From an uncultured Candidatus Saccharibacteria bacterium (GTDB lineage: Bacteria > Patescibacteriota > Doudnabacteria > UBA920): DNA of 64,000 nucleotides. Location of the stretch: the NCBI GenBank assembly GCA_964600695.1, contig CAZRKK010000002.1:5354-69353 (forward strand), read 5' to 3'. Within the stretch, counting starts at the first letter, position 1. The number at the start of each line of letters is the position of its first letter. The position numbers were made by a program, and so were the translations under genes. Below, in pieces: positions 13,910-42,735 of this stretch. The notes beneath the pieces were generated by a model. That model saw only the letters and a program-made list of their open reading frames with translations. It had not been told where the DNA came from and ran no database searches.

Positions 13910-16468
13910 ATGCCTTTTGGATTTGAACTCAATACTGTAATTTATGCATCACTACTACTAGGAATTTTAGTAGTAGTGTTTTTGCTTGTCGCTGCTTATT
14001 ATATTCACAGGCATTGGTATTACAGTCATGTCATTTTACCCCGCACTAAAGAGTGGGTGTTTTTGGAAATTCAAATGCCAAAAGACAACAGCGAGGATAA
14101 AGAAAAATATCAACGCGATGAAGAAAAAAAATTACTAATTGGTATTGCCGAGCAATTATTCACAACTTTATCAGGAATTAGTCACACTAATTGGTTTTGG
14201 CAACCTAAAGAATATATAAGTTTTGAAATTGCGTGTACAGACAAAAAGATTTCCTTTTATATCAATTGTCCGCGTAAGCTTCAGGAGCTAATAGAAAAAC
14301 AAGTTCAAGCTCAGTACCCTCACGCTTTTATCGAGGAGATTAAAGGCTATAATCCCTTTCCAGAAACTGGGGAGATCGAAGCTACCGAGTTAAGATTGAC
14401 CAAGCCTTATATGTATCCTTTTCGTACTTACAAGAGTATGGAAACAGATCCATTGAATGCGTTAACAAACGCTATGTCAAAACTGAGCGATGGTGATGGG
14501 GCGGTTATTCAAATGATTTTGTATCCAGCAGGGGATCACTGGCAGCATCGTCCGCGGCACATGGCTTTAGAAATTCAGCAAGGTAAAAATCCGAACATTG
14601 TTGCCAAGAGTGCGTTTGGAAGATTTGCGCGCGAGGTAGGAAGCACAGCTAAGGATGGTGTCTTAGGTGGAACTCAGTTAAGTAAAGATCAAATGCAACA
14701 ACGTACCGATTTGTCGGGACGTTATTCGGCCATCAACTTAACTCCGATGCAACAAGACATGGTTAAGCGTTTCGAAGAAAAAGCTAGCCGCCCAGGCTTC
14801 TATACCAACATTCGTATTGTCACAGCATCACCAACTCCTGGAACAGCTAAAGTGAATATGCATAATTTAGTGTCTTCATTTTTGCAGTACAACATGCCGC
14901 CGTTTAATGGTTTTAGAGTTAAGCGTCGTGCTAAGAAGCGTATTATTAAAGATTATATTTTTAGAATTTATCGCCGCTACGGACGTAAGTCTATTTTAAA
15001 TACCGAAGAATTAACTAGTATTTGGCATCTTCCGACTCCATTTTTGGAAACACCTAATATTAAATGGTTGTTATCTAAAAAAGCTCCACCACCTATAAAC
15101 TTGCAACCAGAAGGAATATTACTAGGCCGAAATATATATCGTGGGCAGGAGACACCAATTCATATGGCACGTGATGATCGTCGTCGTCACATGTATATTT
15201 TGGGACGTACTGGTGTGGGTAAAACCGAAATCATGAAATACATGTCCGTTCAAGATATCAAGAACGGTGATGGAATTTGTATTATCGATCCTCATGGTGA
15301 TTTTATTGAAGATGTTTTACCTCACATTCCAAAAGAACGAGCCGAAGATGTAATCTTATTTGACCCATTCGATACCGACAGGCCGATGGGTTTGAACATG
15401 CTCGAAGTCACTAGTGAAGGTCAAAAAGATTTTGCTGTTCAAGAAATGATCTCTATCTTTTATAAATTAGTTACAGATCCTGCGATGCTTGGACCTATGT
15501 TCGAGCACAACATGCGTAATGCCATGCTAACCTTAATGGCTGACGAAGAAAATCCTGGAACTATTGTTGAAGTCCCACGTATATTTACGGACACTGAATT
15601 CCAAAAGTATAAAGTCTCTAAATTAAATGATCCTGTGGTAAGAGCATTTTGGGAGAAAGAAATGGCCAAGACTTCCGATTTTCATAAGTCGGAAATGTTA
15701 GGTTACTTAGTTTCTAAAGTAGGCCGCTTTGTAGAAAATTCCATGATGCGAAATATTGTTGGTCAACCAAAGAGTTCTTTTAACTTCCGTGATATCATGG
15801 ATAACAAAAAAATTCTTTTGGTGAATTTAGCAAAGGGTAAAGTAGGGGAGGTGAACGCAAAATTAATTGGCTTAATTTTAGTGAGTAAAATTCAAATGGC
15901 GGCATTGTCCCGTGCAGATATTCCAGAAAGCGAACGCCAAGATTTCTATTTATATGTTGATGAATTCCAAAACTTTATTACCGATGCTTTTTCTTCTATT
16001 TTGAGCGAAGCCCGTAAGTATCGATTGAATTTGATTATTGGTCATCAGTTCTTAGCTCAGTTGGGGCAAGCAGCTGGTGCGCAAGGTGCAGCTAGTAACG
16101 ATTTACGTGATGCTGTGTTTGGTAATGCTGGTAGTATGGTAACTTTCCGTATTGGTGTAGAAGATAGTGAAGTTATGGCAAAGGAGTTTGCACCAACTTT
16201 TAATGAGTTTGATTTATTAAATGTCGATAGATTTAATGCTTTTGTAAAGTTGATGATTAATGGAACAGCCAGCAAACCATTTAACATGGCCACATACCCC
16301 TTAGCTAAACCAACTGAAGATCAAAAGAAGACAGGGGATGCTATTCGACAGTTATCAAGGTTAAAATTTGGTCGTCCACGGGCCGAAGTTGAAGCAGAAA
16401 TCCTAGAAGCCAGCCAAGTTGCTGATATGATGGCGGCTGGTCCAGGGAGTATCGAGAAAACGGTTTAA
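13910..16468 (+). CDS. membrane-anchored P-loop NTPase, TraG/VirD4 (type IV coupling protein)-like, FtsK-HerA superfamily
   Basis: N-terminal TM helix (VIYASLLLGILVVVFLLVAAYYI). Walker A is LGRTGVGKTE and IIDPHGDF follows it. Walker B is FYLYVDEFQNF, then ARKYRLNLIIGHQFLAQL, resembling the TraG-D_C region. Confidence 0.7.
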   Translation: MPFGFELNTVIYASLLLGILVVVFLLVAAYYIHRHWYYSHVILPRTKEWVFLEIQMPKDNSEDKEKYQRDEEKKLLIGIAEQLFTTLSGISHTNWFWQPKEYISFEIACTDKKISFYINCPRKLQELIEKQVQAQYPHAFIEEIKGYNPFPETGEIEATELRLTKPYMYPFRTYKSMETDPLNALTNAMSKLSDGDGAVIQMILYPAGDHWQHRPRHMALEIQQGKNPNIVAKSAFGRFAREVGSTAKDGVLGGTQLSKDQMQQRTDLSGRYSAINLTPMQQDMVKRFEEKASRPGFYTNIRIVTASPTPGTAKVNMHNLVSSFLQYNMPPFNGFRVKRRAKKRIIKDYIFRIYRRYGRKSILNTEELTSIWHLPTPFLETPNIKWLLSKKAPPPINLQPEGILLGRNIYRGQETPIHMARDDRRRHMYILGRTGVGKTEIMKYMSVQDIKNGDGICIIDPHGDFIEDVLPHIPKERAEDVILFDPFDTDRPMGLNMLEVTSEGQKDFAVQEMISIFYKLVTDPAMLGPMFEHNMRNAMLTLMADEENPGTIVEVPRIFTDTEFQKYKVSKLNDPVVRAFWEKEMAKTSDFHKSEMLGYLVSKVGRFVENSMMRNIVGQPKSSFNFRDIMDNKKILLVNLAKGKVGEVNAKLIGLILVSKIQMAALSRADIPESERQDFYLYVDEFQNFITDAFSSILSEARKYRLNLIIGHQFLAQLGQAAGAQGAASNDLRDAVFGNAGSMVTFRIGVEDSEVMAKEFAPTFNEFDLLNVDRFNAFVKLMINGTASKPFNMATYPLAKPTEDQKKTGDAIRQLSRLKFGRPRAEVEAEILEASQVADMMAAGPGSIEKTV

Positions 16469-16509
16469 GTAGCTGTAAGCAGCCATAATTAGTAATAAGT
16501 CAGTGGGTA

Positions 16510-16538
16510 TTGACAAAATCAACTATTTGTGATATTAT
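16510..16538 (+). promoter_or_regulatory. near-consensus sigma70 promoter with extended -10
   Basis: TTGACA (16510-16515), 17-nt spacer, TGaTATTAT (16530-16538). Confidence 0.65.
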
Positions 16539-16593
16539 ATTCGCAGTAGTTTTTTTGTAGTTTAAATCAATTTAGTTGGAGGACTTTGTTAAT

Positions 16594-17064
16594 ATGTATA
16601 AAAACTCGTTGGTCATGAAGATGATCCTAACGTTTGCGGCCTTTAGCGCCGTCGTTGTATTCCTGAACTACGTGGTCGGCATGCCGACTACTAAGCGCAT
16701 GAACTTCGTCTTGATGAGCTATGGTGTTGGTTCGGCCACCATCTTGGCTCTCGCGGCCGTTTTTCCGAGCCGTCTGACATCGGCGCTGTGCCGTCTTGTG
16801 CAGATTGGTTGGGCAGTGGCCATCGTTCTCGGTGGTTTTGCTATGATTATTATCATTGTGGTTGGTTTGGGGCAGTTTAACCTGCCGTTCCTATCGCTAC
16901 AGTGGTATAGCCTGTTCATGGCTTTAGGAATCTTGGGGGCCAGCGTGTTCATGTTTGTCAACGACTCGTATTTTGAAGTCGTTAACGAATATGAAAGCAA
17001 AGCTGGGAAGCCTAAGGTGGTGACACCGCCGGCAAACAGCACTTCGTCGAGCGTTTCGGCATAG
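16594..17064 (+). CDS. 4-TM membrane protein, G+C/CpG-rich coding sequence, no family recognised
   Basis: GGAGGA at 16578-16583, 10 nt before the ATG at 16594, which I prefer over the TTG at 16576. Four hydrophobic helices. Codon usage differs from neighbouring genes. Confidence 0.6.
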   Translation: MYKNSLVMKMILTFAAFSAVVVFLNYVVGMPTTKRMNFVLMSYGVGSATILALAAVFPSRLTSALCRLVQIGWAVAIVLGGFAMIIIIVVGLGQFNLPFLSLQWYSLFMALGILGASVFMFVNDSYFEVVNEYESKAGKPKVVTPPANSTSSSVSA

Positions 17065-17091
17065 AAACTCCGCACAAGGGTTAGAAGTATT

Positions 17092-17128
17092 GGGTAAGAG
17101 CGAAAATATTCGCTTTTACCCTTTTTTT
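17092..17128 (+). terminator. rho-independent terminator
   Basis: 11-bp stem gggtaagagcg (17092-17102) / cgcttttaccc (17111-17121) with one G-U pair, then T7. Confidence 0.8.
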
Positions 17129-17169
17129 ATTGCCTAAAATTGCCATTTTAAAATTTCTGTTATCAGCTA

Positions 17170-17198
17170 TTGACAAAACATCAAAAATAGTGTATACT
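17170..17198 (+). promoter_or_regulatory. near-consensus sigma70 promoter
   Basis: TTGACA (17170-17175), 17-nt spacer, TATACT (17193-17198). It shares the tattgacaaaa context with the promoter at 16510. Confidence 0.65.
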
Positions 17199-17233
17199 GT
17201 TACTTAAACTAAATATTGGTTAGAAAGTGAATT

Positions 17234-17346
17234 ACCTTCAGAAATTCAGATTTATCGAGATATGGTTTTCTGAAGGTCATGCACGTGTATGACTGTTGTA
17301 GCGCTGTAAATAAAAAAACAGCATTGTAACGGTCAATCACATGACC
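17234..17346 (+). ncRNA. structured 5' leader (four consecutive hairpins), candidate cis-regulatory RNA
   Basis: P1 17234-17277 has an 11-bp stem. P2 17276-17293 is a near-palindrome. P3 17295-17330 has a 13-bp stem with G-U pairs that work only on the + strand. P4 is 17331-17346. Confidence 0.4.
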
Positions 17347-17385
17347 AAGTTTTCAAAAACAGCCTAAGGAGGGCTAATCAATACT

Positions 17386-18102
17386 ATGCAGAAATTCATT
17401 ATTTCGTTCGTTTTTGTCGCAATGTCACTTATGGCTGTTTCGTCGGCCTCGGCCCAGAATCCGGACTTGAACGTTCCGGTGCCTTCGGGAAAGACGCAGA
17501 CCACGAAGAGCCCGGACTTGAACGTTCCGGTGCCTAACAAGTCGGTTCAAAGTTCGGCTAACGTCTATAGGACGTACCGCAACACTACGGTCGTTAAGAA
17601 GTATTCCATGAACGGCGTCGACAAAGACGCTCGTGAAGTGAATGTCGCTCAGGACATTCGTATAAAAAAACTGGAAGACGGCAAGGCTAACTCGTCGGAC
17701 GTCGAAGCAGGATTTAAGTCGGTTGACGATCGTTTCGCGGCTAAGGATCAGGTGGATGCACGACAGGACCGAGAGCTCGGATATACTTTCTGGGCTTTCA
17801 TAATCATCCCGGTAGTCTTTCTGGTTCTGGCGTTGTTGTACTTCATGTTTGGAGGCAACAATAATAACGTTCAGGTTAACGGTGGTGGACATGCACCGGC
17901 ATACGTACCTCAGGCCCAGCCTGCAGTACAGCCGATACCATACTACCAGCCTATTCCTGCACAACCCGTTCCTGCGGCACAACCGGTTCCTGCAGCCAAC
18001 CAACAGCCAAGCGTAAATGTTCCGATCAATATTGCGGTCGAGCCGATTCAGATCGATCTCCGACCGTCGTTGCGTGGAACACCGCCGGCACCCGCTCAGT
18101 AG
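17386..18102 (+). CDS. secreted, TM-anchored protein with PDLNVPVP repeats and a P/Q-rich tail; G+C/CpG-rich coding sequence
   Basis: AAGGAGGG lies 9 nt upstream of the ATG. Signal peptide ends ...AVSSASA|Q. TM helix FWAFIIIPVVFLVLALLYFMF. 11 of 16 Ser codons are TCG. Confidence 0.65.
   Translation: MQKFIISFVFVAMSLMAVSSASAQNPDLNVPVPSGKTQTTKSPDLNVPVPNKSVQSSANVYRTYRNTTVVKKYSMNGVDKDAREVNVAQDIRIKKLEDGKANSSDVEAGFKSVDDRFAAKDQVDARQDRELGYTFWAFIIIPVVFLVLALLYFMFGGNNNNVQVNGGGHAPAYVPQAQPAVQPIPYYQPIPAQPVPAAQPVPAANQQPSVNVPINIAVEPIQIDLRPSLRGTPPAPAQ
17461..17535 (+). repeat. 24-nt exact direct repeat, two copies 51 nt apart
   Basis: ccggacttgaacgttccggtgcct occurs at 17461-17484 and 17512-17535, encoding PDLNVPVP twice. 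Confidence 0.9.
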
Positions 18103-36182: not shown

Positions 36183-37049
36183 ATGTTAGTTCATATCAAA
36201 GAACTTTTCAACTCAGAAGTTAGGGGAAAGTTTGCTTACCCAGCCTTCAATACTATGAATCTCGAAATAACTCGAGGTATTATTGAAGCTGCCGAGGAAT
36301 TAAATACTCCAATTATTATAGAGACAAGTGAAGGAGCCATTAAGTATGCTGGGCTTGAGCCTATGTTCGAAATAATTGCTAGCCTTGCAATTAAAGCCAA
36401 GATTCCAGTAGCTTTGCATATGGATCATGGTAAAGATATGGAACAGTTGCAGAGAGGTATTGAACTCGGATATTCTTCAGTGATGATTGATCATTCTTCT
36501 TTACCTATTAATGAGAATATAAAGAACACCAAAGCAATGGTTGAATTTGCACATAAGGAAGGCGCTTGGGTTCAGGGTGAAGTGGGCCGTATCCGTGGAA
36601 GTGAAGACTGGGTGTCTGTATCTGAGAGTGAAAGTTTGCTGACTGAGCCCCAAGAAGCTTTAAAATTTTGGCAGGACACCAATGTTGATAGTTTAGCTTG
36701 TTCTTTTGGTACAATTCACGGTATTATTAAGATGAGTGGAAAGGCTGAAGCTAATGTAGACATCGACCGCATTAAACAGGTGTCTGAACTAGTTCCAGTT
36801 CCTTTAGTGTTACATGGTGCAAGCGGTGTACCTGATGATGTGATCGCCAATGCAATTAAAGCCGGCATCAGTATTATTAATATTGATACGGAGTTAAGGA
36901 TAGGGTTCACTAAAAATTTAAGACAGGCGTTATTAGAGCATCCTGATGAAGTTGACCCAAGAAAATATTTAACACCGGCAATTGAAGGTGTTAAGGATGC
37001 AGCAAAAAAGAAGTTATTAGCATTTAAAACAATTAATCAACTTAATTAA
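36183..37049 (+). CDS. fba: class II fructose-bisphosphate aldolase
   Basis: YPAFNT.N.E, HMDHG, LVLHGASG motifs. Confidence 0.9.
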   Translation: MLVHIKELFNSEVRGKFAYPAFNTMNLEITRGIIEAAEELNTPIIIETSEGAIKYAGLEPMFEIIASLAIKAKIPVALHMDHGKDMEQLQRGIELGYSSVMIDHSSLPINENIKNTKAMVEFAHKEGAWVQGEVGRIRGSEDWVSVSESESLLTEPQEALKFWQDTNVDSLACSFGTIHGIIKMSGKAEANVDIDRIKQVSELVPVPLVLHGASGVPDDVIANAIKAGISIINIDTELRIGFTKNLRQALLEHPDEVDPRKYLTPAIEGVKDAAKKKLLAFKTINQLN

Positions 37050-37050
37050 T

Positions 37051-37284
37051 ATGGGAATGGCTGGTTCCGGTTTATCGGACAAAAATGTAAGGTTACGTTT
37101 TTTAATCTATATTTTCATGGGGGTAATTGCTCTCGGTTCTGTGATGTATTGGAAAGTTAAACTTTTTGAGAATTCAGAATATGTAGAACTGACTTTCGGT
37201 ACTCATAAAGAAAAAGATCCATCACTCTTACAATCAGAAAATTATCAAATCGAAACATTCGAGACTTCACCAAGTGTAAAGTAG
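37051..37284 (+). CDS. small single-TM protein, hypothetical
   Basis: 77-aa ORF with an FLIYIFMGVIALGSVMYW helix, starting 1 nt after the fba stop. Confidence 0.4.
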   Translation: MGMAGSGLSDKNVRLRFLIYIFMGVIALGSVMYWKVKLFENSEYVELTFGTHKEKDPSLLQSENYQIETFETSPSVK

Positions 37285-37334
37285 TTATACGTAGCAACGC
37301 AAATAGACCGTAGTATTGAAATAAAAATAATAAA

Positions 37335-38366
37335 ATGCAAAATAAAATTAAAATTGGTATCAATGGATTTGGTCGTATAGGGCGACAGGCTTTTAAAATT
37401 GCTTTAGATAAACCAGAAATCGAGATTGTGGCGATAAATGATTTAACTAGCCCAGCAAGTTTGGCTCATCTTTTAAAATACGATAGTAACTATGGGAAGT
37501 TTGATCATACTATAGAGTCAAACGAAACTCATTTAATTGTAAATGGTAAAAGTTATTTAGTGACTGCAGAAAAAGATCCCGCTAACTTGCCTTGGGGCAA
37601 GCTTGGTGTAGATGTAGTTATCGAAAGTACAGGTAGATTTACAAGTGGAGAAAAGGCTAGTGGTCATTTAGCTGCGGGCGCGAAGAGGGTAATTATTTCT
37701 GCTCCAGCTAAAGATGAAGGTATTACTAAGACATATGTTTTAGGGGTAAACGAAGATGCTTATACCGACGAGGCTATCATTAGCAATGCCTCTTGCACCA
37801 CAAACTGTATTGCTCCTGTAGCGGCTGTTATGCATGCAAAGTTTGGAATCGAGAAAGCTATGATGACTACCATTCATAGTTACACAGCCGAACAAAACTT
37901 AGTAGATGGTCCTCCTCCAGGAGGGCACTCCGAAGATTTTCGTAGAGCACGAGCAGCAGCGGTAAATATTGTACCAACTACCACTGGGGCAGCTATTTCT
38001 GCCACAGAAACAATTCCAGAATTAAAAGGTTTGTTTGATGGTATGGCTATTCGCGTGCCTACTCCTGTTGGAAGTTTAACCGATTTTACCATGTTGTTAA
38101 AAAAAGATGTTACGGTCGAGGAAGTTAATCAAGCGTTTATAGATGCAACTACTCATCCTTTATACAAAGGCGTGTTAGTAGTAACAGATGAACAATTGGT
38201 TTCTTCTGATATCGTTGGTAACCCTGCTTCGGCTATTGTAGATTTATCTTTAACTAAAGTTACTGCCGGTAATTTTGTAAAAGTAATTGCTTGGTATGAT
38301 AATGAATTTGGTTATTCCAATAGACTTGTCGAACAAGTAATTTTAGTTGGCCAGAGTATTAAGTAG
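37335..38366 (+). CDS. gap: glyceraldehyde-3-phosphate dehydrogenase
   Basis: INGFGRIGR and SNASCTTNC catalytic motif, WYDNEFGYS. Confidence 0.96.
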   Translation: MQNKIKIGINGFGRIGRQAFKIALDKPEIEIVAINDLTSPASLAHLLKYDSNYGKFDHTIESNETHLIVNGKSYLVTAEKDPANLPWGKLGVDVVIESTGRFTSGEKASGHLAAGAKRVIISAPAKDEGITKTYVLGVNEDAYTDEAIISNASCTTNCIAPVAAVMHAKFGIEKAMMTTIHSYTAEQNLVDGPPPGGHSEDFRRARAAAVNIVPTTTGAAISATETIPELKGLFDGMAIRVPTPVGSLTDFTMLLKKDVTVEEVNQAFIDATTHPLYKGVLVVTDEQLVSSDIVGNPASAIVDLSLTKVTAGNFVKVIAWYDNEFGYSNRLVEQVILVGQSIK

Positions 38367-38375
38367 GTAAAGTGT

Positions 38376-38403
38376 AAAAAAAAAGAGCAGAAATTTCTGC
38401 TCT
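38376..38403 (-). terminator. rho-independent terminator oriented for the minus strand
   Basis: agagcag (38384-38390) / ctgctct (38397-38403). The A-run at 38376-38383 becomes the U-tract on the minus strand. There is no T-run on the plus-strand side. Confidence 0.7.
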
Positions 38404-38422
38404 GGATGAGGTGTAATTTGTT

Positions 38423-38509
38423 TTAGTTAGGGAGAAAGCTTATCCCTACGGCAAGAATTACAATCCCAAATAAGTAAGCGATGATTAAAATTTTAATATC
38501 TTTTCTCAT
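38423..38509 (-). CDS. 28-aa hydrophobic micro-protein (MRKDIKILIIAYLFGIVILAVGISFLPN)
   Basis: Not in the ORF track (too short). On the minus strand GGAGGA lies 3 nt before the ATG (ctggaggacaaATG), and the correctly oriented terminator starts 20 nt after the stop. Confidence 0.45.
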   Translation of the reverse strand: MRKDIKILIIAYLFGIVILAVGISFLPN

Positions 38510-38574
38510 TTGTCCTCCAGTCGATCGATGTAATAATTGATGTAGCACTAGTATTAAATCATAAATTATCAATT

Positions 38575-39822
38575 TTGTCAATAGAAAGCTTAACAAATAT
38601 TCTTAAAAAAGATGCAAAATCTCTCAAAAATAAGAGAGTTTTGTTAAGATTAGATTTAAACGAAGAGATATCCACAACTGGTAAGTTGCTAGATAATTTT
38701 AGGATTCAGTCGGCAATACCTACAATAAAAATTTTGCGTTCTGCTGGTGCAAAAATCATTATCGTCTCTCATTTGGGTCGGCCAGAAGGGAAGTGGGGTA
38801 CTAGCTTGTCCTTAAAACCAATCGCTAATTGTTTAGCAGAGATGTTGGATTATAAGTACGTAGAGACTGATGGTAAGTTACCGACATATTCAATTCCACA
38901 TCTCGTACTTTTTAAAAATGATATTACCAAGCCTGAGTCTTTAGAATTTCTAAATGATCAGTCAGCTCAGGATATTGTGATGTTAGAAAATATTCGCTTT
39001 TACGAAGGCGAAGATCTAAACTCAGATATTTTTTCGGAACAACTTTCTAAGACAGCTGATTTATTTGTTAATGATGCGTTTAGTGTTTGTCATAGAGCAG
39101 CTGCTTCTGTAGTTGGGGTTACTAAATACCTACCTAGTAGTGCAGGGCCCTTACTAGAAAAAGAAATTAAAGCACTAGAGTTCATGCTTTCTAATAAAGT
39201 TGCAAAACCATTTGTTCTTATGATGGGCGGAATTAAGATTGCCGACAAAGAACAAACTTTGCGTAACCTTGGTAAGCGAGCCGACAAGATTTTACTTGCC
39301 GGTGGTTTGGCTAATTTGTTTTTAAAAGCTCAGGGTTATGATGTTGGTGTTGATGTTGCAGATAAAAAAAGCCTGGCTTTAGCCAAAGAGTTATTACTAA
39401 ATTTTAAATCAAAACTAGTATTACCTTCTGATGTTGCAGTTAAAACTATCAAAGCCCCAAATCAGGCACAAGCTAAACAGTTATCAGAAATTGTGGCTAC
39501 AGATAAACTTTATGATATTGGTCCGCAATCAATTTTGGCTTTTAGCAAGATATTAAAAACTGCTGGAACAATTTGTTGGAATGGCCCACTAGGGTATTTT
39601 GAGGATAAGTCTTTTCGGGCGGGGACAATGGCTATCTCCAATGTTATAGGTGGTTTAGGTAAACGCAAAGCTTACGTATTGGTAGGTGGTGGTGAAACCG
39701 TTGCCTCTGTTAGGTTGGCTGGCCAGTTAGAACACATTGACCATGTGTCTACAGGTGGTGGTGCTATGCTAGAATTTTTAGCCGGTGCTAAACTTCCTGG
39801 AATTGAAGCCTTAAGAAAATAA
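38575..39822 (+). CDS. pgk: phosphoglycerate kinase
   Basis: RLDLN, VSHLGRP, FYEGE, GGGD/GGGAMLEFL-type motifs. Apparent TTG start. Confidence 0.93.
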   Translation: MSIESLTNILKKDAKSLKNKRVLLRLDLNEEISTTGKLLDNFRIQSAIPTIKILRSAGAKIIIVSHLGRPEGKWGTSLSLKPIANCLAEMLDYKYVETDGKLPTYSIPHLVLFKNDITKPESLEFLNDQSAQDIVMLENIRFYEGEDLNSDIFSEQLSKTADLFVNDAFSVCHRAAASVVGVTKYLPSSAGPLLEKEIKALEFMLSNKVAKPFVLMMGGIKIADKEQTLRNLGKRADKILLAGGLANLFLKAQGYDVGVDVADKKSLALAKELLLNFKSKLVLPSDVAVKTIKAPNQAQAKQLSEIVATDKLYDIGPQSILAFSKILKTAGTICWNGPLGYFEDKSFRAGTMAISNVIGGLGKRKAYVLVGGGETVASVRLAGQLEHIDHVSTGGGAMLEFLAGAKLPGIEALRK

Positions 39823-39833
39823 TTTTTCTCTAT

Positions 39834-41087
39834 ATGATTTCCAAAATTAGCAAAATTACTGCTCGCCAAATTTTAGATAGCAGAGGCAATCCAACCTTAG
39901 AGGTTAGTGTGTATGCCGGTAAATCTTTTGCTGTGGCGTCTGTACCAAGTGGAGCCTCGACAGGAAGTCACGAGGCAGTAGAATTACGCGATGGCGGCAA
40001 AGCTTGGCGCGGTTTAGGGGTGCAAAAAGCAGTAAAAAACGTCGAGAAAATCATCACTCCCTTATTAAAAAATATTTCGGTTTTTGACCAAATGGAAATT
40101 GATAGACTAATGTTGGCTAAAGATAATACACCCGACAAGCGACGCTTAGGAGCCAATGCAATATTAGGAGTATCGTTGGCGGTATCACGCTTAGCTGCGC
40201 AATTAAAAAATCAAACTTTATATAATTATTTAGCTAAGACCTATCAGTTTAAAAAACCTTCCTCTCTACCAACACCTTTACTAAATGTTTTAAATGGAGG
40301 ACTTCATGCTGATTCTGGCACAGACGTGCAGGAGTTCTTCTTTATTCCAAAGCGGGGAAAATTTGCCCAAAAGTTAGAAATTGGTAGCCAAGCTATATCT
40401 GCATTAAAACAACTAATAAAAAAGAAAAAACTTTCTGTTGGTTTAGGTGACGAAGGTGGATTTGCTCCTAAGGTTCATTCTAACGAGAAGGCTTTACGTT
40501 TATTACTGGCTGCTGTGCATAAAGCTAAGTTTCGTTTAGGGAAAGATATCGCCTTAGGTATCGATGCTGCTGCCAGTGAATTTTTTGATGCCGAGAGAGA
40601 AGTCTATAATTTTAGTTCTGATAACAAACATTACAAACCTGCAAGTGTTTATAAGTTATATGCAAGTTGGGTAAAACGATTTGGTTTAGAAATAATCGAA
40701 GACGGATGCGCCGAGGATGATTTTGCGGGTTGGCAAAAGTTAACTTCAGCTTTAGGGGATAATATAACTCTGGTAGGTGATGATTTGTTTGTAACAAACC
40801 CTGCACGACTACAGGCTGGAATAATTTCTGGAATAGCTAACAGTGTACTAATTAAACCAAACCAAATTGGATCGGTGTCGGAAACAATGGCAACGATTAA
40901 GTTGGCCAAAAAGTTTAATTATAAAGTTGTCATTTCACATCGAAGCGGGGAAACGGCCGATGATTTTATTGCCGATTTAGCAGTTGCGGTTGGCGCGGAT
41001 TATATCAAGGCAGGTAGCTTAGCTCGAGGGGAGCGTTTAGCAAAGTATAATCGATTATTAAAAATTGCCGACGAACTTAAGCAGTAG
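39834..41087 (+). CDS. eno: enolase
   Basis: ITARQILDSRGNPTLEV, SHRSGETAD, IKAGSLARGERLAKYN. Confidence 0.96.
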   Translation: MISKISKITARQILDSRGNPTLEVSVYAGKSFAVASVPSGASTGSHEAVELRDGGKAWRGLGVQKAVKNVEKIITPLLKNISVFDQMEIDRLMLAKDNTPDKRRLGANAILGVSLAVSRLAAQLKNQTLYNYLAKTYQFKKPSSLPTPLLNVLNGGLHADSGTDVQEFFFIPKRGKFAQKLEIGSQAISALKQLIKKKKLSVGLGDEGGFAPKVHSNEKALRLLLAAVHKAKFRLGKDIALGIDAAASEFFDAEREVYNFSSDNKHYKPASVYKLYASWVKRFGLEIIEDGCAEDDFAGWQKLTSALGDNITLVGDDLFVTNPARLQAGIISGIANSVLIKPNQIGSVSETMATIKLAKKFNYKVVISHRSGETADDFIADLAVAVGADYIKAGSLARGERLAKYNRLLKIADELKQ

Positions 41088-41115
41088 AGCTTAGTTACGG
41101 GAACTTAATTTATAA

Positions 41116-42735
41116 ATGAAAAGAGTTTACAAAAAAATTGTCTTGGTGGTCTTAGATGGATTTGGTGTGGCTACATACAGTCACGGTAATGCCATTGCTT
41201 TGGCTAATCCAGAGGCGATGAACGATCTCATTGCTCACTATCCATCGTTAACTTTATTGGCTTCTGGTCCAGTGGTTGGTTTGCCGTGGGGTGAAGTAGG
41301 TAACTCTGAAGTTGGTCATTTGAATATGGGAGCTGGTAGGGTTGTTGGCCAAGATTTGCCGCGTATTAATGCGGCAATTTCGGACCATTCATTTTTAAGC
41401 AACCCAGTCTTTTTAGAAGCAATTGAGCATGCTCGAAAAAATAACTCAAAACTACATTTAGTTGGGTTGGTGAGTGACGGTGGTGTTCACAGTAGTTGTG
41501 AGCATTTATACGCGCTATTGGGTGTGGCAGCCGAGCAACAGTTTAATGAGGTTTATATCCATATGTTTACTGATGGACGTGATACAGGGCCAAAAGTCGC
41601 CTTAGAAAGCATTGCTAAACTCAAAGACACAATTGCGAAATTAGGTGTAGGGAAAATTGCTACAATCGCTGGGCGATTTTATGGCATGGACCGTGGTAAG
41701 CATTGGGATCAAACTGAAGCTATGTATAGAGCAATGGTTAAAGGCGCAGGTGCTGCTGCGGACTCTGCAGAAGATGCAATTTTAAATAACTATAATCAAA
41801 ATATTTTTGATGAAATGATTCCACCTACGGTAATTGTTTCTAGGGGTGAAGATGGAAGTATTAAACCTACTGGTGTTGTTTCTAGTAATGATGCAATAAT
41901 ATTTTTTAATTTTCGATCTGATCGAGCTATTCAGTTAACTAAAGCATTTGTGGTCCCACAGGATATGGATATCGAAAAAAAGCACCCTCCTTTGGATAAT
42001 TTATATTTTGCCACTATGACTGAGTATCTTAGTAACTTGCCGGTTCATGTGGCTTTTGCTCAACAGAATCTAAAAAATAATTTGGCCGAAGCTTTATCTA
42101 CCAGAGGAATTCGTCAGTATCACATTGCGGAAAGCGAAAAATTTGCTCACGTCACTTCATTCTTCAATGGGGGAGTAAGTGAGCCGTTTGCGGGTGAGGA
42201 GCGTACTATTGTGCAAAGCCCTATCAATGATAAGAATTATGTGGATCGACCTCAGATGTCGGGAATCGAAGTTGCAGACAAGTTAGTTCATAAGATTATG
42301 GAAGAAGACTTTCAATTCTATTTAGCTAACTTTGCAAACTCAGATATGGTTGGTCATACAGGGAATATTACTGCTGGGATTAAGGCTGTGCAGTATCTAG
42401 ATCGTTTCTTAGAACAAATTCGTAAGGCTGTGCTAAGTGTTGATGGTTTATTAATCATTAGTGCCGACCATGGTAACATCGAAGAAATGATCGACCGTAA
42501 GACTGGTGATATAAACACAGAGCATAGTACTAGCCCAGTTCCATTTATTGCCATGGCTAAAGACTTAGCTTTTCCTGTAGCTAAGAATCGTAACTATTTA
42601 TCATTATCCAGTATGATGCCTTCTGGGGTAGTTTCTGATATTGCGCCAACCATCCTAGAATTTTTTGGTATTCCTAAGCCAGCAGAGATGACTTCTGTAA
42701 GTTTAGTGGATCAAATCGAGGCCCAGCTAAAATAG
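41116..42735 (+). CDS. gpmI: 2,3-bisphosphoglycerate-independent phosphoglycerate mutase
   Basis: VLVVLDGFG, NSEVGHLNMGAGR, SDGGVHS, ADHGN motifs. Confidence 0.94.
   Translation: MKRVYKKIVLVVLDGFGVATYSHGNAIALANPEAMNDLIAHYPSLTLLASGPVVGLPWGEVGNSEVGHLNMGAGRVVGQDLPRINAAISDHSFLSNPVFLEAIEHARKNNSKLHLVGLVSDGGVHSSCEHLYALLGVAAEQQFNEVYIHMFTDGRDTGPKVALESIAKLKDTIAKLGVGKIATIAGRFYGMDRGKHWDQTEAMYRAMVKGAGAAADSAEDAILNNYNQNIFDEMIPPTVIVSRGEDGSIKPTGVVSSNDAIIFFNFRSDRAIQLTKAFVVPQDMDIEKKHPPLDNLYFATMTEYLSNLPVHVAFAQQNLKNNLAEALSTRGIRQYHIAESEKFAHVTSFFNGGVSEPFAGEERTIVQSPINDKNYVDRPQMSGIEVADKLVHKIMEEDFQFYLANFANSDMVGHTGNITAGIKAVQYLDRFLEQIRKAVLSVDGLLIISADHGNIEEMIDRKTGDINTEHSTSPVPFIAMAKDLAFPVAKNRNYLSLSSMMPSGVVSDIAPTILEFFGIPKPAEMTSVSLVDQIEAQLK

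What the first reader, a model, noticed from the sequence alone, without database searches (positions are those of the whole stretch)
38367..38574. Convergent 28-aa hydrophobic micro-ORF with its own SD and terminator splits the glycolytic cluster between gap and pgk
Seen:
- On the minus strand, 38509-38423 encodes MRKDIKILIIAYLFGIVILAVGISFLPN, a basic N-terminus followed by a single TM-length hydrophobic stretch.
- It is preceded by GGAGGA (ctggaggacaaATG).
- It is followed after 20 nt by a hairpin (38384-38403) whose U-tract exists only on the minus strand. The plus strand has A9 before the stem and no T-run after it.
- This is the only minus-strand signal in about 20 kb of plus-strand operon, and it is too short for the ORF track.

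Established: this size and shape is typical of type I toxins and small membrane regulatory peptides.

Inference: a small membrane peptide gene whose transcription converges on gap and could modulate read-through into pgk. I did not find a convincing promoter.
Basis: partly seen in the sequence, partly recalled or inferred. Interest (0 to 1): 0.5.

Follow-up and report, generated by a model that had tools for sequence, protein, structure and literature searches.

The report
Conserved unannotated micro-membrane-protein gene between gap and pgk
The 28-codon reverse-strand ORF between two glycolysis genes is a real gene for a tiny membrane peptide, kept under selection across one group of uncultured small-genome bacteria, but what the peptide does and whether it affects the glycolysis genes is still unknown.

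Summary
The ORF at 38509-38423 (-) encodes MRKDIKILIIAYLFGIVILAVGISFLPN. It has a GGAGGA Shine-Dalgarno site and a minus-strand-only intrinsic terminator (38384-38403 plus a T-run).

It is a genuine coding gene. Homologous 28-41 aa single-TM ORFs sit at the same place and in the same orientation in 11 further lineages (PGK down to about 65% identity). Each has a GGAGG site, a start codon and a terminator. Selection is purifying: omega is 0.04 for window vs L091, and 13 of 18 changes fall at codon position 3. The terminator stem shows compensatory changes.

Its -35 hexamer is the reverse complement of nucleotides 2-7 of pgk (TTG TCA A).

A sister clade carries a two-gene version (TM peptide plus a 72-78 aa Cys-containing protein). 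One nested lineage has lost the cassette, and one strain has ATG->ATA, so the gene is dispensable.

There is no match in Pfam, NCBIfam or Rfam. The type I toxin features are mostly not met. Any effect on gap-to-pgk read-through is plausible from the geometry but untested.

Verdict: a new family of a known kind (small membrane proteins), of moderate interest.

The parts
38576..38581 (-). -35 hexamer TTGACA of the micro-gene promoter. It is the reverse complement of pgk nucleotides 2-7 (pgk begins TTG TCA A at 38575).
   Evidence: Read directly. It is identical in 12 of 12 cassette-bearing lineages. The lineage that lost the cassette (L095) has TTGGCA (pgk TTG CCA). Conservation here is confounded with the coding of the PGK N-terminus.
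38553..38561 (-). Extended -10 element TGaTTTAAT (TG at 38561-38560, hexamer at 38558-38553), exactly 17 nt from the -35.
   Evidence: The spacer is 17 nt in all 12 lineages, TATG(A/G) is invariant, and the hexamer is TTTAAT, TTTTAT, TATATT, TTTGAT or TTCAAT. The same TTGACAAAAT...TGnTATTAT design occurs at 16510-16538(+) upstream of another SD-led gene. The stricter pattern gives 2 exact matches against 0.30 expected. The looser one-mismatch pattern gives 4 against 2.35 expected and is not enriched. Position 2 of the hexamer is T rather than the consensus A in most lineages.
38510..38546 (-). Predicted short 5' UTR (about 36 nt, TSS inferred near 38546) containing the Shine-Dalgarno GGAGGA at 38518-38513.
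   Evidence: GGAGG precedes the start codon in all lineages. Only about 8 of 68 genes in the window have GGAGG. The UTR tolerates indels: a 12-nt deletion in L005. The TSS is inferred, not mapped.
38423..38509 (-). Micro-ORF of 28 codons plus TAA: MRKDIKILIIAYLFGIVILAVGISFLPN. It has a basic N-terminus, one TM-length hydrophobic span and almost no C-terminal tail.
   Evidence: Orthologues are listed. dN/dS is 0.04 (window vs L091) and 0.12 (L180 vs L184), with a third-position excess at p about 1e-3. The hydrophobicity maximum is 2.05-2.91 in all members.
38375..38403 (-). Intrinsic terminator for the minus strand: an 8-bp stem-loop at 38403-38384 followed by a T-run at 38383-38376, ending 9 nt from the gap stop codon.
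   Evidence: Across 6 lineages 100% of stem cells are paired and 2 of 6 core pairs show compensatory A:U<->G:C changes. The sister clade has stems of different sequence but again a stem plus T-run. No T-run follows the stem on the + strand in any lineage.
37335..38366 (+). gap (glyceraldehyde-3-phosphate dehydrogenase), the convergent upstream neighbour. It has no + strand terminator of its own.
   Evidence: Pfam PF00044 and PF02800. Terminator scan.
38575..39822 (+). pgk (phosphoglycerate kinase), the divergent neighbour. It has a TTG start and no SD. Its first codons overlap the micro-gene -35.
   Evidence: Pfam PF00162. TTG at 38575 is the first canonical start in frame. The N-terminus LSIxSL is conserved.

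Best explanation
The spacer holds a complete, independently expressed micro-gene on the minus strand.

Its parts, in order:
- a sigma-70-type promoter: -35 TTGACA overlapping the pgk start codon, a 17-nt spacer ending in TGn, and -10 TTTAAT
- a short 5' UTR with a strong GGAGGA ribosome-binding site
- a 28-codon ORF
- an intrinsic terminator that ends just short of the gap stop codon

The predicted mRNA of about 170 nt is translated into a single-pass membrane peptide. By the positive-inside rule, the basic N-terminus stays in the cytoplasm and the C-terminus barely emerges on the far side. The peptide most likely acts inside the membrane as a small accessory or modulator of another membrane component, as characterised bacterial small membrane proteins do, rather than as a toxin.

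In a sister clade the orthologous peptide gene is followed in the same transcription unit by a 72-78 aa Cys-containing soluble protein. The peptide may therefore originally have been half of a two-protein module.

The transcription unit lies wholly antisense inside the gap-to-pgk read-through path, and its promoter sits on the pgk start. Its transcription and operon read-through should therefore antagonise each other through polymerase collision, promoter occlusion, or sense-antisense pairing over about 170 nt.

Shown: the gene anatomy, its conservation, purifying selection, terminator covariation, the conserved promoter motif, and dispensability (one loss, one start-codon mutant).

Inferred: the TSS, membrane insertion and topology, the accessory function, and any effect on pgk expression.
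For: - Anatomy at the stated coordinates.
- Orthologous ORFs of 28-41 aa occur in the same position and orientation, each with GGAGG, a start codon and a stem plus T-run. They are found in L091, L093/94, L096, L097/98, L099, L186, L187, L180-183, L184 and L185, although the DNA is too diverged to align outside the signals.
- Purifying selection: window vs L091 has 13 synonymous and 5 non-synonymous changes, omega 0.04, binomial p = 8.5e-4 for the third-position excess. L180 vs L184 gives omega 0.12.
- Terminator: all cells paired, with compensatory changes.
- The promoter TTGACA-17-(TGn)TxTxAT is present in 12 of 12 lineages, while no + strand promoter-like site is conserved before pgk. A near-identical promoter lies at 16510-16538 ahead of another SD-led gene.
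- A profile of the family hits only these spacer ORFs among 29,633 stop-to-stop frames of 20-120 codons in the 180 sequences then held (179 loci plus the window). The repeat with an 11-member profile, frames of up to 150 codons and all loci gave the same result.
- The hydrophobic span scores 2.05-2.91, with net positive charge at the N-terminus in every member.
- The SD is rare in this genome (about 8 of 68 genes) but universal in this family.
Against: - There are no expression data of any kind. The TSS, the transcript and translation are all inferred.
- The -10 hexamer lacks the consensus A at position 2 in most lineages. Conservation of the -35 cannot be separated from conservation of the PGK N-terminus.
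- One same-species contig (L005) has ATG->ATA at the start codon, plus 3 conservative replacements against 2 synonymous changes.
- L095, which is nested in the clade, has lost the whole cassette, leaving gap and pgk 6 nt apart. The gene is therefore dispensable, and a regulatory role for pgk cannot be obligatory.
- The function of the peptide is a guess by analogy.
- The family was not found elsewhere, but peptides under 40 aa could not be searched in the large protein database.
Confidence: 0.62

Rival explanations
1. Type I toxin-antitoxin-like module. The peptide is a membrane-damaging toxin. The fully complementary gap-pgk read-through mRNA, or an unrecognised antisense RNA, acts as the antitoxin by blocking translation or triggering degradation of the micro-mRNA.
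For: - The peptide is small, hydrophobic and single-TM, with a strong SD.
- Any + strand read-through from gap is perfectly antisense to the whole micro-mRNA, because gap has no + strand terminator.
- In the window, the minimum-free-energy fold pairs the SD with a CCUC in the 3' UTR, which resembles the fold-back inhibition seen in hok/AapA1-type mRNAs.
- Loss in L095 and the start-codon mutation in L005 are compatible with a dispensable, selfish module.
Against: - The criteria compiled by Fozo et al. 2010 (PMC2887945) are a polar or aromatic C-terminal tail, loci distant from flanking genes, tandem copies, and a structured dedicated sRNA. None of these is met.
- The C-terminus is just LP(N/D). 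The gene lies 65 nt and 56 nt from its neighbours. There is a single copy per locus, and the profile finds no paralogues.
- The predicted 5' UTR is only about 20-36 nt, and its sequence and length vary.
- The CCUC anti-SD is absent in L091, L093, L097 and L099.
- The gene is inherited vertically at a fixed site under strong purifying selection.
- No + strand promoter for an sRNA is conserved.
Confidence: 0.15
2. The unit is primarily a regulatory antisense transcription unit. Its job is to insulate or attenuate gap-to-pgk read-through by collision or RNA duplex formation, uncoupling upper and lower glycolytic gene expression. The peptide itself is secondary.
For: - The unit is nested exactly between the gap stop and the pgk start in every lineage.
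- Its promoter overlaps the pgk start codon, and its terminator abuts the gap stop.
- No conserved + strand promoter precedes pgk.
- Antisense promoters are known to repress by collision (PMC4731013, PMC10349824).
Against: - An omega of 0.04-0.12 and a universally kept SD, start and stop show that selection acts on the peptide sequence, not only on transcription.
- L095 manages with a 6-nt gap-pgk junction.
- In the sister clade the unit carries a second protein gene.
Confidence: 0.15
3. A chance ORF, or a decaying remnant of a larger gene, next to a hairpin that serves the + strand, for example as a 3' stabiliser of gap mRNA.
For: - The ORF is very short.
- L005 has lost the ATG.
- Gene callers did not annotate it in most assemblies.
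- There are no database homologues.
Against: - The reading frame, SD, start, stop and TM character are conserved across 12 lineages, with synonymous sites close to saturation between the window and L091 (pS 0.70, dS about 2).
- The U-tract is on the minus strand in all lineages.
- The combination of features is unique within the window.
Confidence: 0.03

Closest known systems
Bacterial small single-TM membrane proteins (for example E. coli YohP, 27 aa; also KdpF, AcrZ and CydX-type accessory peptides). YohP is described in PMC7549839; the others are from general knowledge.
   Same: A length of 27-50 aa. Essentially one transmembrane helix with a short basic N-terminus. Own ribosome-binding site. 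Usually missed by annotation. Detected by conservation plus RBS logic.
   Different: No sequence similarity to any Pfam or NCBIfam small-protein family: the best E-values are 0.01-0.2, far below the cut-offs. The family is restricted to one clade of uncultured small-genome bacteria. It is nested antisense inside a glycolytic operon. Its partner and function are unknown.
Type I toxins (Fst/Ldr, TisB, DinQ, Ibs, Hok; PMC2887945, PMC3567139)
   Same: A small hydrophobic peptide whose mRNA is fully overlapped by a potential antisense transcript.
   Different: No dedicated sRNA gene, no polar or aromatic C-terminal tail, no tandem repeats, no long structured 5' UTR. The locus is tightly packed and inherited vertically.
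Excludon-type or cis-antisense transcriptional interference (PMC4731013, PMC10349824)
   Same: A convergent promoter firing into an operon's read-through path. A promoter placed over the neighbouring gene's 5' end.
   Different: In this case the antisense transcript is short, terminated and protein-coding. No expression data show interference.
Internal uncoupling of gapA from pgk in the Bacillus subtilis cggR-gapA-pgk-tpi-pgm-eno operon (own knowledge: mRNA processing and an internal promoter upstream of pgk)
   Same: The gap/pgk boundary is a point at which expression of the glycolytic operon is divided.
   Different: B. subtilis uses + strand processing and an internal promoter. There is no antisense micro-gene there, and here no + strand promoter is conserved.

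Membership tests
Protein-coding small ORF (real gene) | The reading frame, start and stop are conserved in diverged relatives | tested here: met
   12 lineages keep an intact 28-41 codon ORF at the same site. The exceptions are L005 (ATG->ATA) and L095 (cassette deleted).
Protein-coding small ORF (real gene) | Purifying selection (dN/dS well below 1, excess of third-position changes) | tested here: met
   Omega is 0.04 (window vs L091) and 0.12 (L180 vs L184), with position-3 excess at p = 8.5e-4 and 1.5e-3. L096 vs L097 gives omega 0.34 at saturation.
Protein-coding small ORF (real gene) | Direct evidence of translation (Ribo-seq, mass spectrometry, tagging) | not testable with these tools
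   No expression data are accessible.
Small single-pass membrane protein | One hydrophobic span of about 19-23 residues, with flanking charge following the positive-inside rule | tested here: met
   The Kyte-Doolittle 19-residue maximum is 2.05-2.91 in all 9 sequence types. The K/R residues are concentrated at the N-terminus.
Small single-pass membrane protein | Membrane localisation shown experimentally | not testable with these tools
   The organism is uncultured.
Type I toxin-antitoxin | Small (<70 aa) protein with a TM region | tested here: met
Type I toxin-antitoxin | [quoted passage not shown] 2010, PMC2887945) | tested here: not met
   In the window's own subclade the peptides end LPN, LPD or CLDL directly after the TM span. 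Some relatives end in aromatic residues (YAYNQ, YAWEL, WWVLYG), so the result is mixed across the family.
Type I toxin-antitoxin | A dedicated antisense or divergent sRNA antitoxin with its own promoter and structure | tested here: not met
   No conserved + strand promoter exists in or near the unit. There is no Rfam match. Only operon read-through could serve as the antisense RNA, and that is untested.
Type I toxin-antitoxin | Locus set apart from flanking genes, often in tandem or multiple copies | tested here: not met
   The gene lies 65 nt from pgk and 56 nt from gap. It is single-copy, and the profile finds no paralogue in the window or in any locus.
Type I toxin-antitoxin | Toxicity on overexpression | not testable with these tools
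   This requires an experiment.
Rho-independent (intrinsic) terminator | A GC-containing stem-loop immediately followed by a U-tract on the transcribed strand | tested here: met
   An 8-bp stem, a 4-nt loop and T8-9 on the minus strand. The fold is -11.6 kcal/mol, z = -4.9. Covariation is shown. The feature is present in all lineages.
Sigma-70-type promoter with extended -10 | -35 TTGACA, a 16-18 nt spacer, TGn, and a -10 resembling TATAAT | tested here: inconclusive
   The -35 is a perfect match, the spacer is 17 nt and TGn is present in 12 of 12 lineages. The hexamer matches 4-5 of 6 positions but usually has T rather than A at position 2. The TSS is not mapped.
Excludon / transcriptional interference unit | Demonstrated reciprocal effect of antisense transcription on the overlapped operon | not testable with these tools
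   Only the geometry is shown.

The most novel reading that the evidence does not exclude
The micro-gene is a conserved bifunctional switch inside the glycolytic operon of a group of Patescibacteria-like bacteria. Its promoter, whose -35 is written in the antisense of the pgk TTG start codon, competes with gap-to-pgk read-through. Firing of the micro-gene would then lower expression of the lower-glycolysis genes (pgk-eno-pgm) while at the same time producing a membrane peptide that adjusts a membrane function such as substrate uptake. This would couple carbon flux and membrane state through one 170-nt antisense unit.
Probability: 0.12. Interest if true: 0.75.

Novelty: new member of a known kind. 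Interest (0 to 1): 0.45.

Why it matters
It adds an unannotated, selection-supported small membrane protein family to a group of uncultured, reduced-genome bacteria whose small proteome is essentially unexplored. It also shows that sequence alone (SD, TM span, terminator) can pick out such genes in a genome where SD sites are rare.

The architecture is unusually compact. The promoter lies over the neighbour's start codon, the terminator lies against the other neighbour's stop codon, and the unit sits antisense inside a core metabolic operon. That makes it a clean natural test case for transcriptional interference.

If the peptide or its transcription affects pgk-eno-pgm expression, it would be a new way of partitioning a glycolytic operon. 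If not, it is simply one more orphan small membrane protein.

Tried and rejected
1. Pfam and NCBIfam scans of five family members at E <= 10 gave only sub-threshold noise (Dexa_ind, OAD_gamma, Sec61beta, YniD, CcoS). Pfam also found nothing for the 41-aa form, the 72/78-aa partner or orf77.
2. The search for homologous proteins refuses queries under 40 aa, so the 5.8-billion-protein database could not be searched with the peptide.
3. The 57-aa stop-to-stop extension searched against 1.84 billion representatives returned 0 hits.
4. Rfam at gathering threshold over the whole window returned 0 hits. At E <= 10 over 38250-38700 it returned only chance-level hits.
5. Gap-based scans of genome contigs and metagenome contigs returned mostly distant relatives (<= 74% Gap identity) without the cassette. 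The informative relatives came instead from PGK homologues and exact-protein contig look-ups.
6. RNAalifold on nine terminators failed because MAFFT misaligned the sister-clade stems. This was replaced by a six-sequence alignment with explicit pair counting.
7. A 5'-3' SD-sequestering fold (CCUC in the 3' UTR) appears in the window's minimum-free-energy structure, but it is not conserved in relatives and was rejected as a family feature.
8. + strand promoters for pgk were considered: TTGTCC-16-AATAAT at 38510-38537, and a TTGATG-17-CATAAA motif that would give a near-leaderless pgk. The first is destroyed by the L005 deletion, and neither is conserved.
9. The AlphaFold2 model of the sister-clade 78-aa partner protein had a mean pLDDT of 40 and was unusable, so no fold search was run.
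10. A tblastn search for that partner protein in the window found nothing significant.

Full report
**1. The observation**

- On the minus strand, ATG at 38509 opens a 28-codon frame ending in TAA at 38425-38423. It encodes MRKDIKILIIAYLFGIVILAVGISFLPN.
- GGAGGA (38518-38513) sits 3 nt before the ATG.
- Nineteen nucleotides after the stop there is an 8-bp stem-loop (38403-38384, AGAGCAGAAATTTCTGCTCT) followed by T8-9. This was the top hit of the terminator scan.
- The hairpin folds at -11.6 kcal/mol, with no shuffle folding as well (z = -4.9).
- On the + strand the same stem is preceded by A9 and followed by TGGATGAGG, so it can terminate only minus-strand transcription.

The flanking genes are gap (37335-38366) and pgk (38575-39822, TTG start). 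They belong to a + strand run: transketolase C-half, pfkB, fba, a 77-aa ORF, gap, pgk, eno, iPGM, recJ.

Within the window the combination is unique. Of 443 ATG ORFs of 20-60 codons, four have GGAGG 3-10 nt upstream. Only this one is also intergenic, TM-like and followed by a terminator. GGAGG is itself rare here, preceding only about 8 of 68 genes.

**2. Source and relatives**

The Gap protein is encoded identically on 20 public contigs. The longest is GCA_044227685.1 JBGAWI010000004.1. The nearest named genomes are MAGs labelled Candidatus Doudnabacteria or Saccharibacteria at 73-74% Gap identity. One relative is a complete 943-kb genome (CP064996.1). The organism is therefore an uncultured, small-genome bacterium of the Patescibacteria type.

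PGK homologues fall into a near-identical group (97-99%) and then a series at 74-64% identity. I fetched their contigs.

**3. The ORF is a conserved gene**

In every fetched lineage but one, the gap-pgk spacer (186-232 nt) carries a minus-strand ORF. Each has a GGAGG site, an ATG or GTG start, a single hydrophobic span, and a stem plus T-run that abuts the gap stop.

| Locus | PGK identity | Peptide |
|---|---|---|
| L091 | 97% | MRKDIKVLIIAYLFGVAILSVGISFLPD |
| L093 | 74% | MKPEVKILIIYNLVGIIIILIGLVKCLDL |
| L099 | about 69% | MGKKFWIVFIVLYLIMISVMLAGFIYAYNQ |
| L096 | about 68% | MVKFLQKINVEIRPKHVIAATYFVGIALVLYVLIFQLP |
| L186 | about 68% | MVKFLKAINIELKLKHVLGATYIIGIMIVLYSVFFELPW |
| L097 | about 66% | MSKLLEKLNREVKPWQMFVVLYSLGAMVMLYSFFFALP |
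| L187 | about 67% | MKKVLMAINCRLKPWQAFVLLYLIGGILLAASLFYAWEL |

- A profile built from the family finds only these spacer ORFs among all short frames of the window and all loci fetched. The first run covered 29,633 frames of 20-120 codons in 180 sequences. The repeat with the 11-member profile covered frames up to 150 codons in all loci.
- Substitution patterns show coding constraint. Window vs L091 has 13 synonymous and 5 non-synonymous differences. Synonymous sites are close to saturation (pS 0.70), omega is 0.04, and 13 of 18 changes are at codon position 3 (p = 8.5e-4). L180 vs L184 gives omega 0.12.
- The terminator stem stays fully paired in six lineages, with compensatory A:U<->G:C changes at two of six core pairs.

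**4. The missing promoter**

Aligning the minus strand upstream of the ORFs shows the same design in 12 of 12 lineages: TTGACA, a 17-nt spacer ending TATG(A/G), and a hexamer T(T/A)T(A/T/G/C)(A/T)T.

- In the window it reads TTGACA (38581-38576), AAATTGATAATTTATGA, TTTAAT (38558-38553).
- The -35 is the reverse complement of pgk nucleotides 2-7. All cassette-bearing lineages start pgk with TTG TCA AT.
- The same promoter design (TTGACAAAAT...TGTGATATTAT) occurs at 16510-16538(+), upstream of another gene that also has GGAGGA. Only the stricter pattern is enriched (2 matches against 0.30 expected). The looser one-mismatch pattern is not (4 against 2.35).

Two caveats apply. The hexamer usually has T instead of the consensus A at position 2. 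Conservation of the -35 is confounded with the PGK N-terminus.

No + strand promoter-like site is conserved ahead of pgk. The window's TTGTCC-16-AATAAT is removed by a 12-nt deletion in L005.

**5. Evolution**

- A sister clade (L180-L185, PGK 65-67%) has a 430-473 nt spacer with the same promoter and a terminator. It holds two minus-strand genes. The first is a 34-41 aa TM peptide (MKTNRPNQWTGLAGANLVNKILVFTIIGTMIAVCTWWVLYG), which aligns with the family. The second is a 72-78 aa Cys/His-containing protein with a CPxC motif.
- That second protein has only two clusters in the 5.8-billion-protein database and no Pfam match. Its AF2 model was unusable.
- In an NJ tree of Gap+PGK, the cassette-bearing lineages form one clade. 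L095, which has gap and pgk 6 nt apart and pgk beginning TTG CCA, is nested inside it, so it lost the cassette secondarily.
- The outgroups (L100, L102, L011, L012) lack the cassette. L011 and L012 instead have a PD-(D/E)XK (PF13366) gene, or its remnant, at the same junction.
- One same-species contig (L005) has ATG->ATA at the start codon, while the SD, frame and stop are intact.
- The gene is thus old, vertically inherited and constrained, but not essential.

**6. What it is not**

- There is no Pfam, NCBIfam or Rfam match, and no hit for the extended ORF in 1.84 billion representative proteins.
- Measured against the type I toxin criteria of Fozo et al. 2010 (PMC2887945), only size and the TM span are met.
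  - The window's subclade has no polar or aromatic tail.
  - The locus is squeezed between its neighbours.
  - It is single-copy.
  - The predicted 5' UTR is short (about 20-36 nt) and variable.
  - No dedicated antisense promoter is conserved.
  - The SD:CCUC fold-back seen in the window is absent in most relatives.

**7. Mechanism**

Shown:
- a complete promoter-SD-ORF-terminator unit
- purifying selection on the peptide
- TM character in every member
- nesting antisense between the gap stop and the pgk start
- no + strand terminator after gap

Inferred:
- An mRNA of about 170 nt (about 38546 to about 38376) is translated into an N-in single-pass peptide. The peptide acts in the membrane as an accessory or modulator, by analogy with characterised small membrane proteins such as YohP (PMC7549839).
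- Transcription of this unit and gap-to-pgk read-through antagonise each other by collision, promoter occlusion or RNA pairing. Antisense promoters are known to do this (PMC4731013, PMC10349824).

The interference idea is geometrically attractive but has no data behind it. L095 shows that the operon works without the unit.

**8. Verdict**

A promoter is now identified. The toxin analogy is weak, and the regulatory effect on pgk remains open. This is a new family of a known kind, of moderate interest.

Noticed in passing
window 1-64000 (start-codon upstream regions): Most genes, including ribosomal-protein and glycolytic genes, have no Shine-Dalgarno sequence. GGAGG precedes only about 8 of 68 ORFs. 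Apart from two enzyme genes inside the operon (29664, which looks like tpiA, and 31489, the transketolase N-terminal half), these are Pfam-less orphan genes (684, 1517, 16594, 17386, 51473(-), 55796(-)) and the micro-ORF. SD use may mark lineage-specific or promoter-proximal genes in this organism.
   Followed up: partly
window 37051-37284 (+): A 77-aa ORF lies between fba and gap. It has one hydrophobic span (MGMAGSGLSDKNVRLRFLIYIFMGVIALGSVMYWK...) and no Pfam match. It is present as a 56-79 aa gene at the same place in all relatives examined, so it is a second small membrane protein embedded in the glycolytic cluster.
   Followed up: partly
window 38575 (+); L095 3001; L011/L012: pgk starts with TTG and has no SD in the whole cassette clade (TTG TCA AT; TTG CCA in L095). 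Two outgroups read here, L011 and L012, use ATG. The rare start codon coincides with the antisense -35 TTGACA of the micro-gene.
   Followed up: partly
L011 5030-5440 and L012 5009-5173: In the nearest outgroup genomes the same gap-pgk junction holds a + strand PD-(D/E)XK_3 (PF13366) gene (L011) or a truncated remnant of it (L012). The junction has therefore been invaded independently by different small genes.
   Followed up: partly
L180 2577-2813 (-), L185 2622-2840 (-): The sister-clade cassette carries a second gene for a 72-78 aa basic, Cys/His-containing protein (CPxC...H...C). It has no Pfam family and only two clusters in 5.8 billion proteins. The AF2 model had pLDDT 40.
   Followed up: partly
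window 13910-18102: A VirD4/TrwB-like type IV coupling protein gene (13910-16468) is followed by a consensus promoter (16510-16538). Next comes a GC-richer stretch (0.447 against about 0.38) with Pfam-less ORFs and long overlapping ORFs on both strands (16576-17064, 17386-18102). The 17386 product has a signal-peptide-like N-terminus and PDLNVPVP repeats.
   Followed up: no
L005 vs window (36183-42366): Divergence between two same-species contigs is mosaic: fba 4.6% (38 of 40 changes at codon position 3), gap 1.4%, eno 0.2%, spacer about 7%. This suggests recombination among strains.
   Followed up: no
L095 4281-4982; L096/L180/L184/L187 after eno: Gene content around the cluster varies among relatives. 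L095 has an extra 233-aa gene (weak DIT1_PvcA hit) between pgk and eno. Several lineages have a 70-aa DUF1653 gene between eno and iPGM that the window lacks.
   Followed up: no
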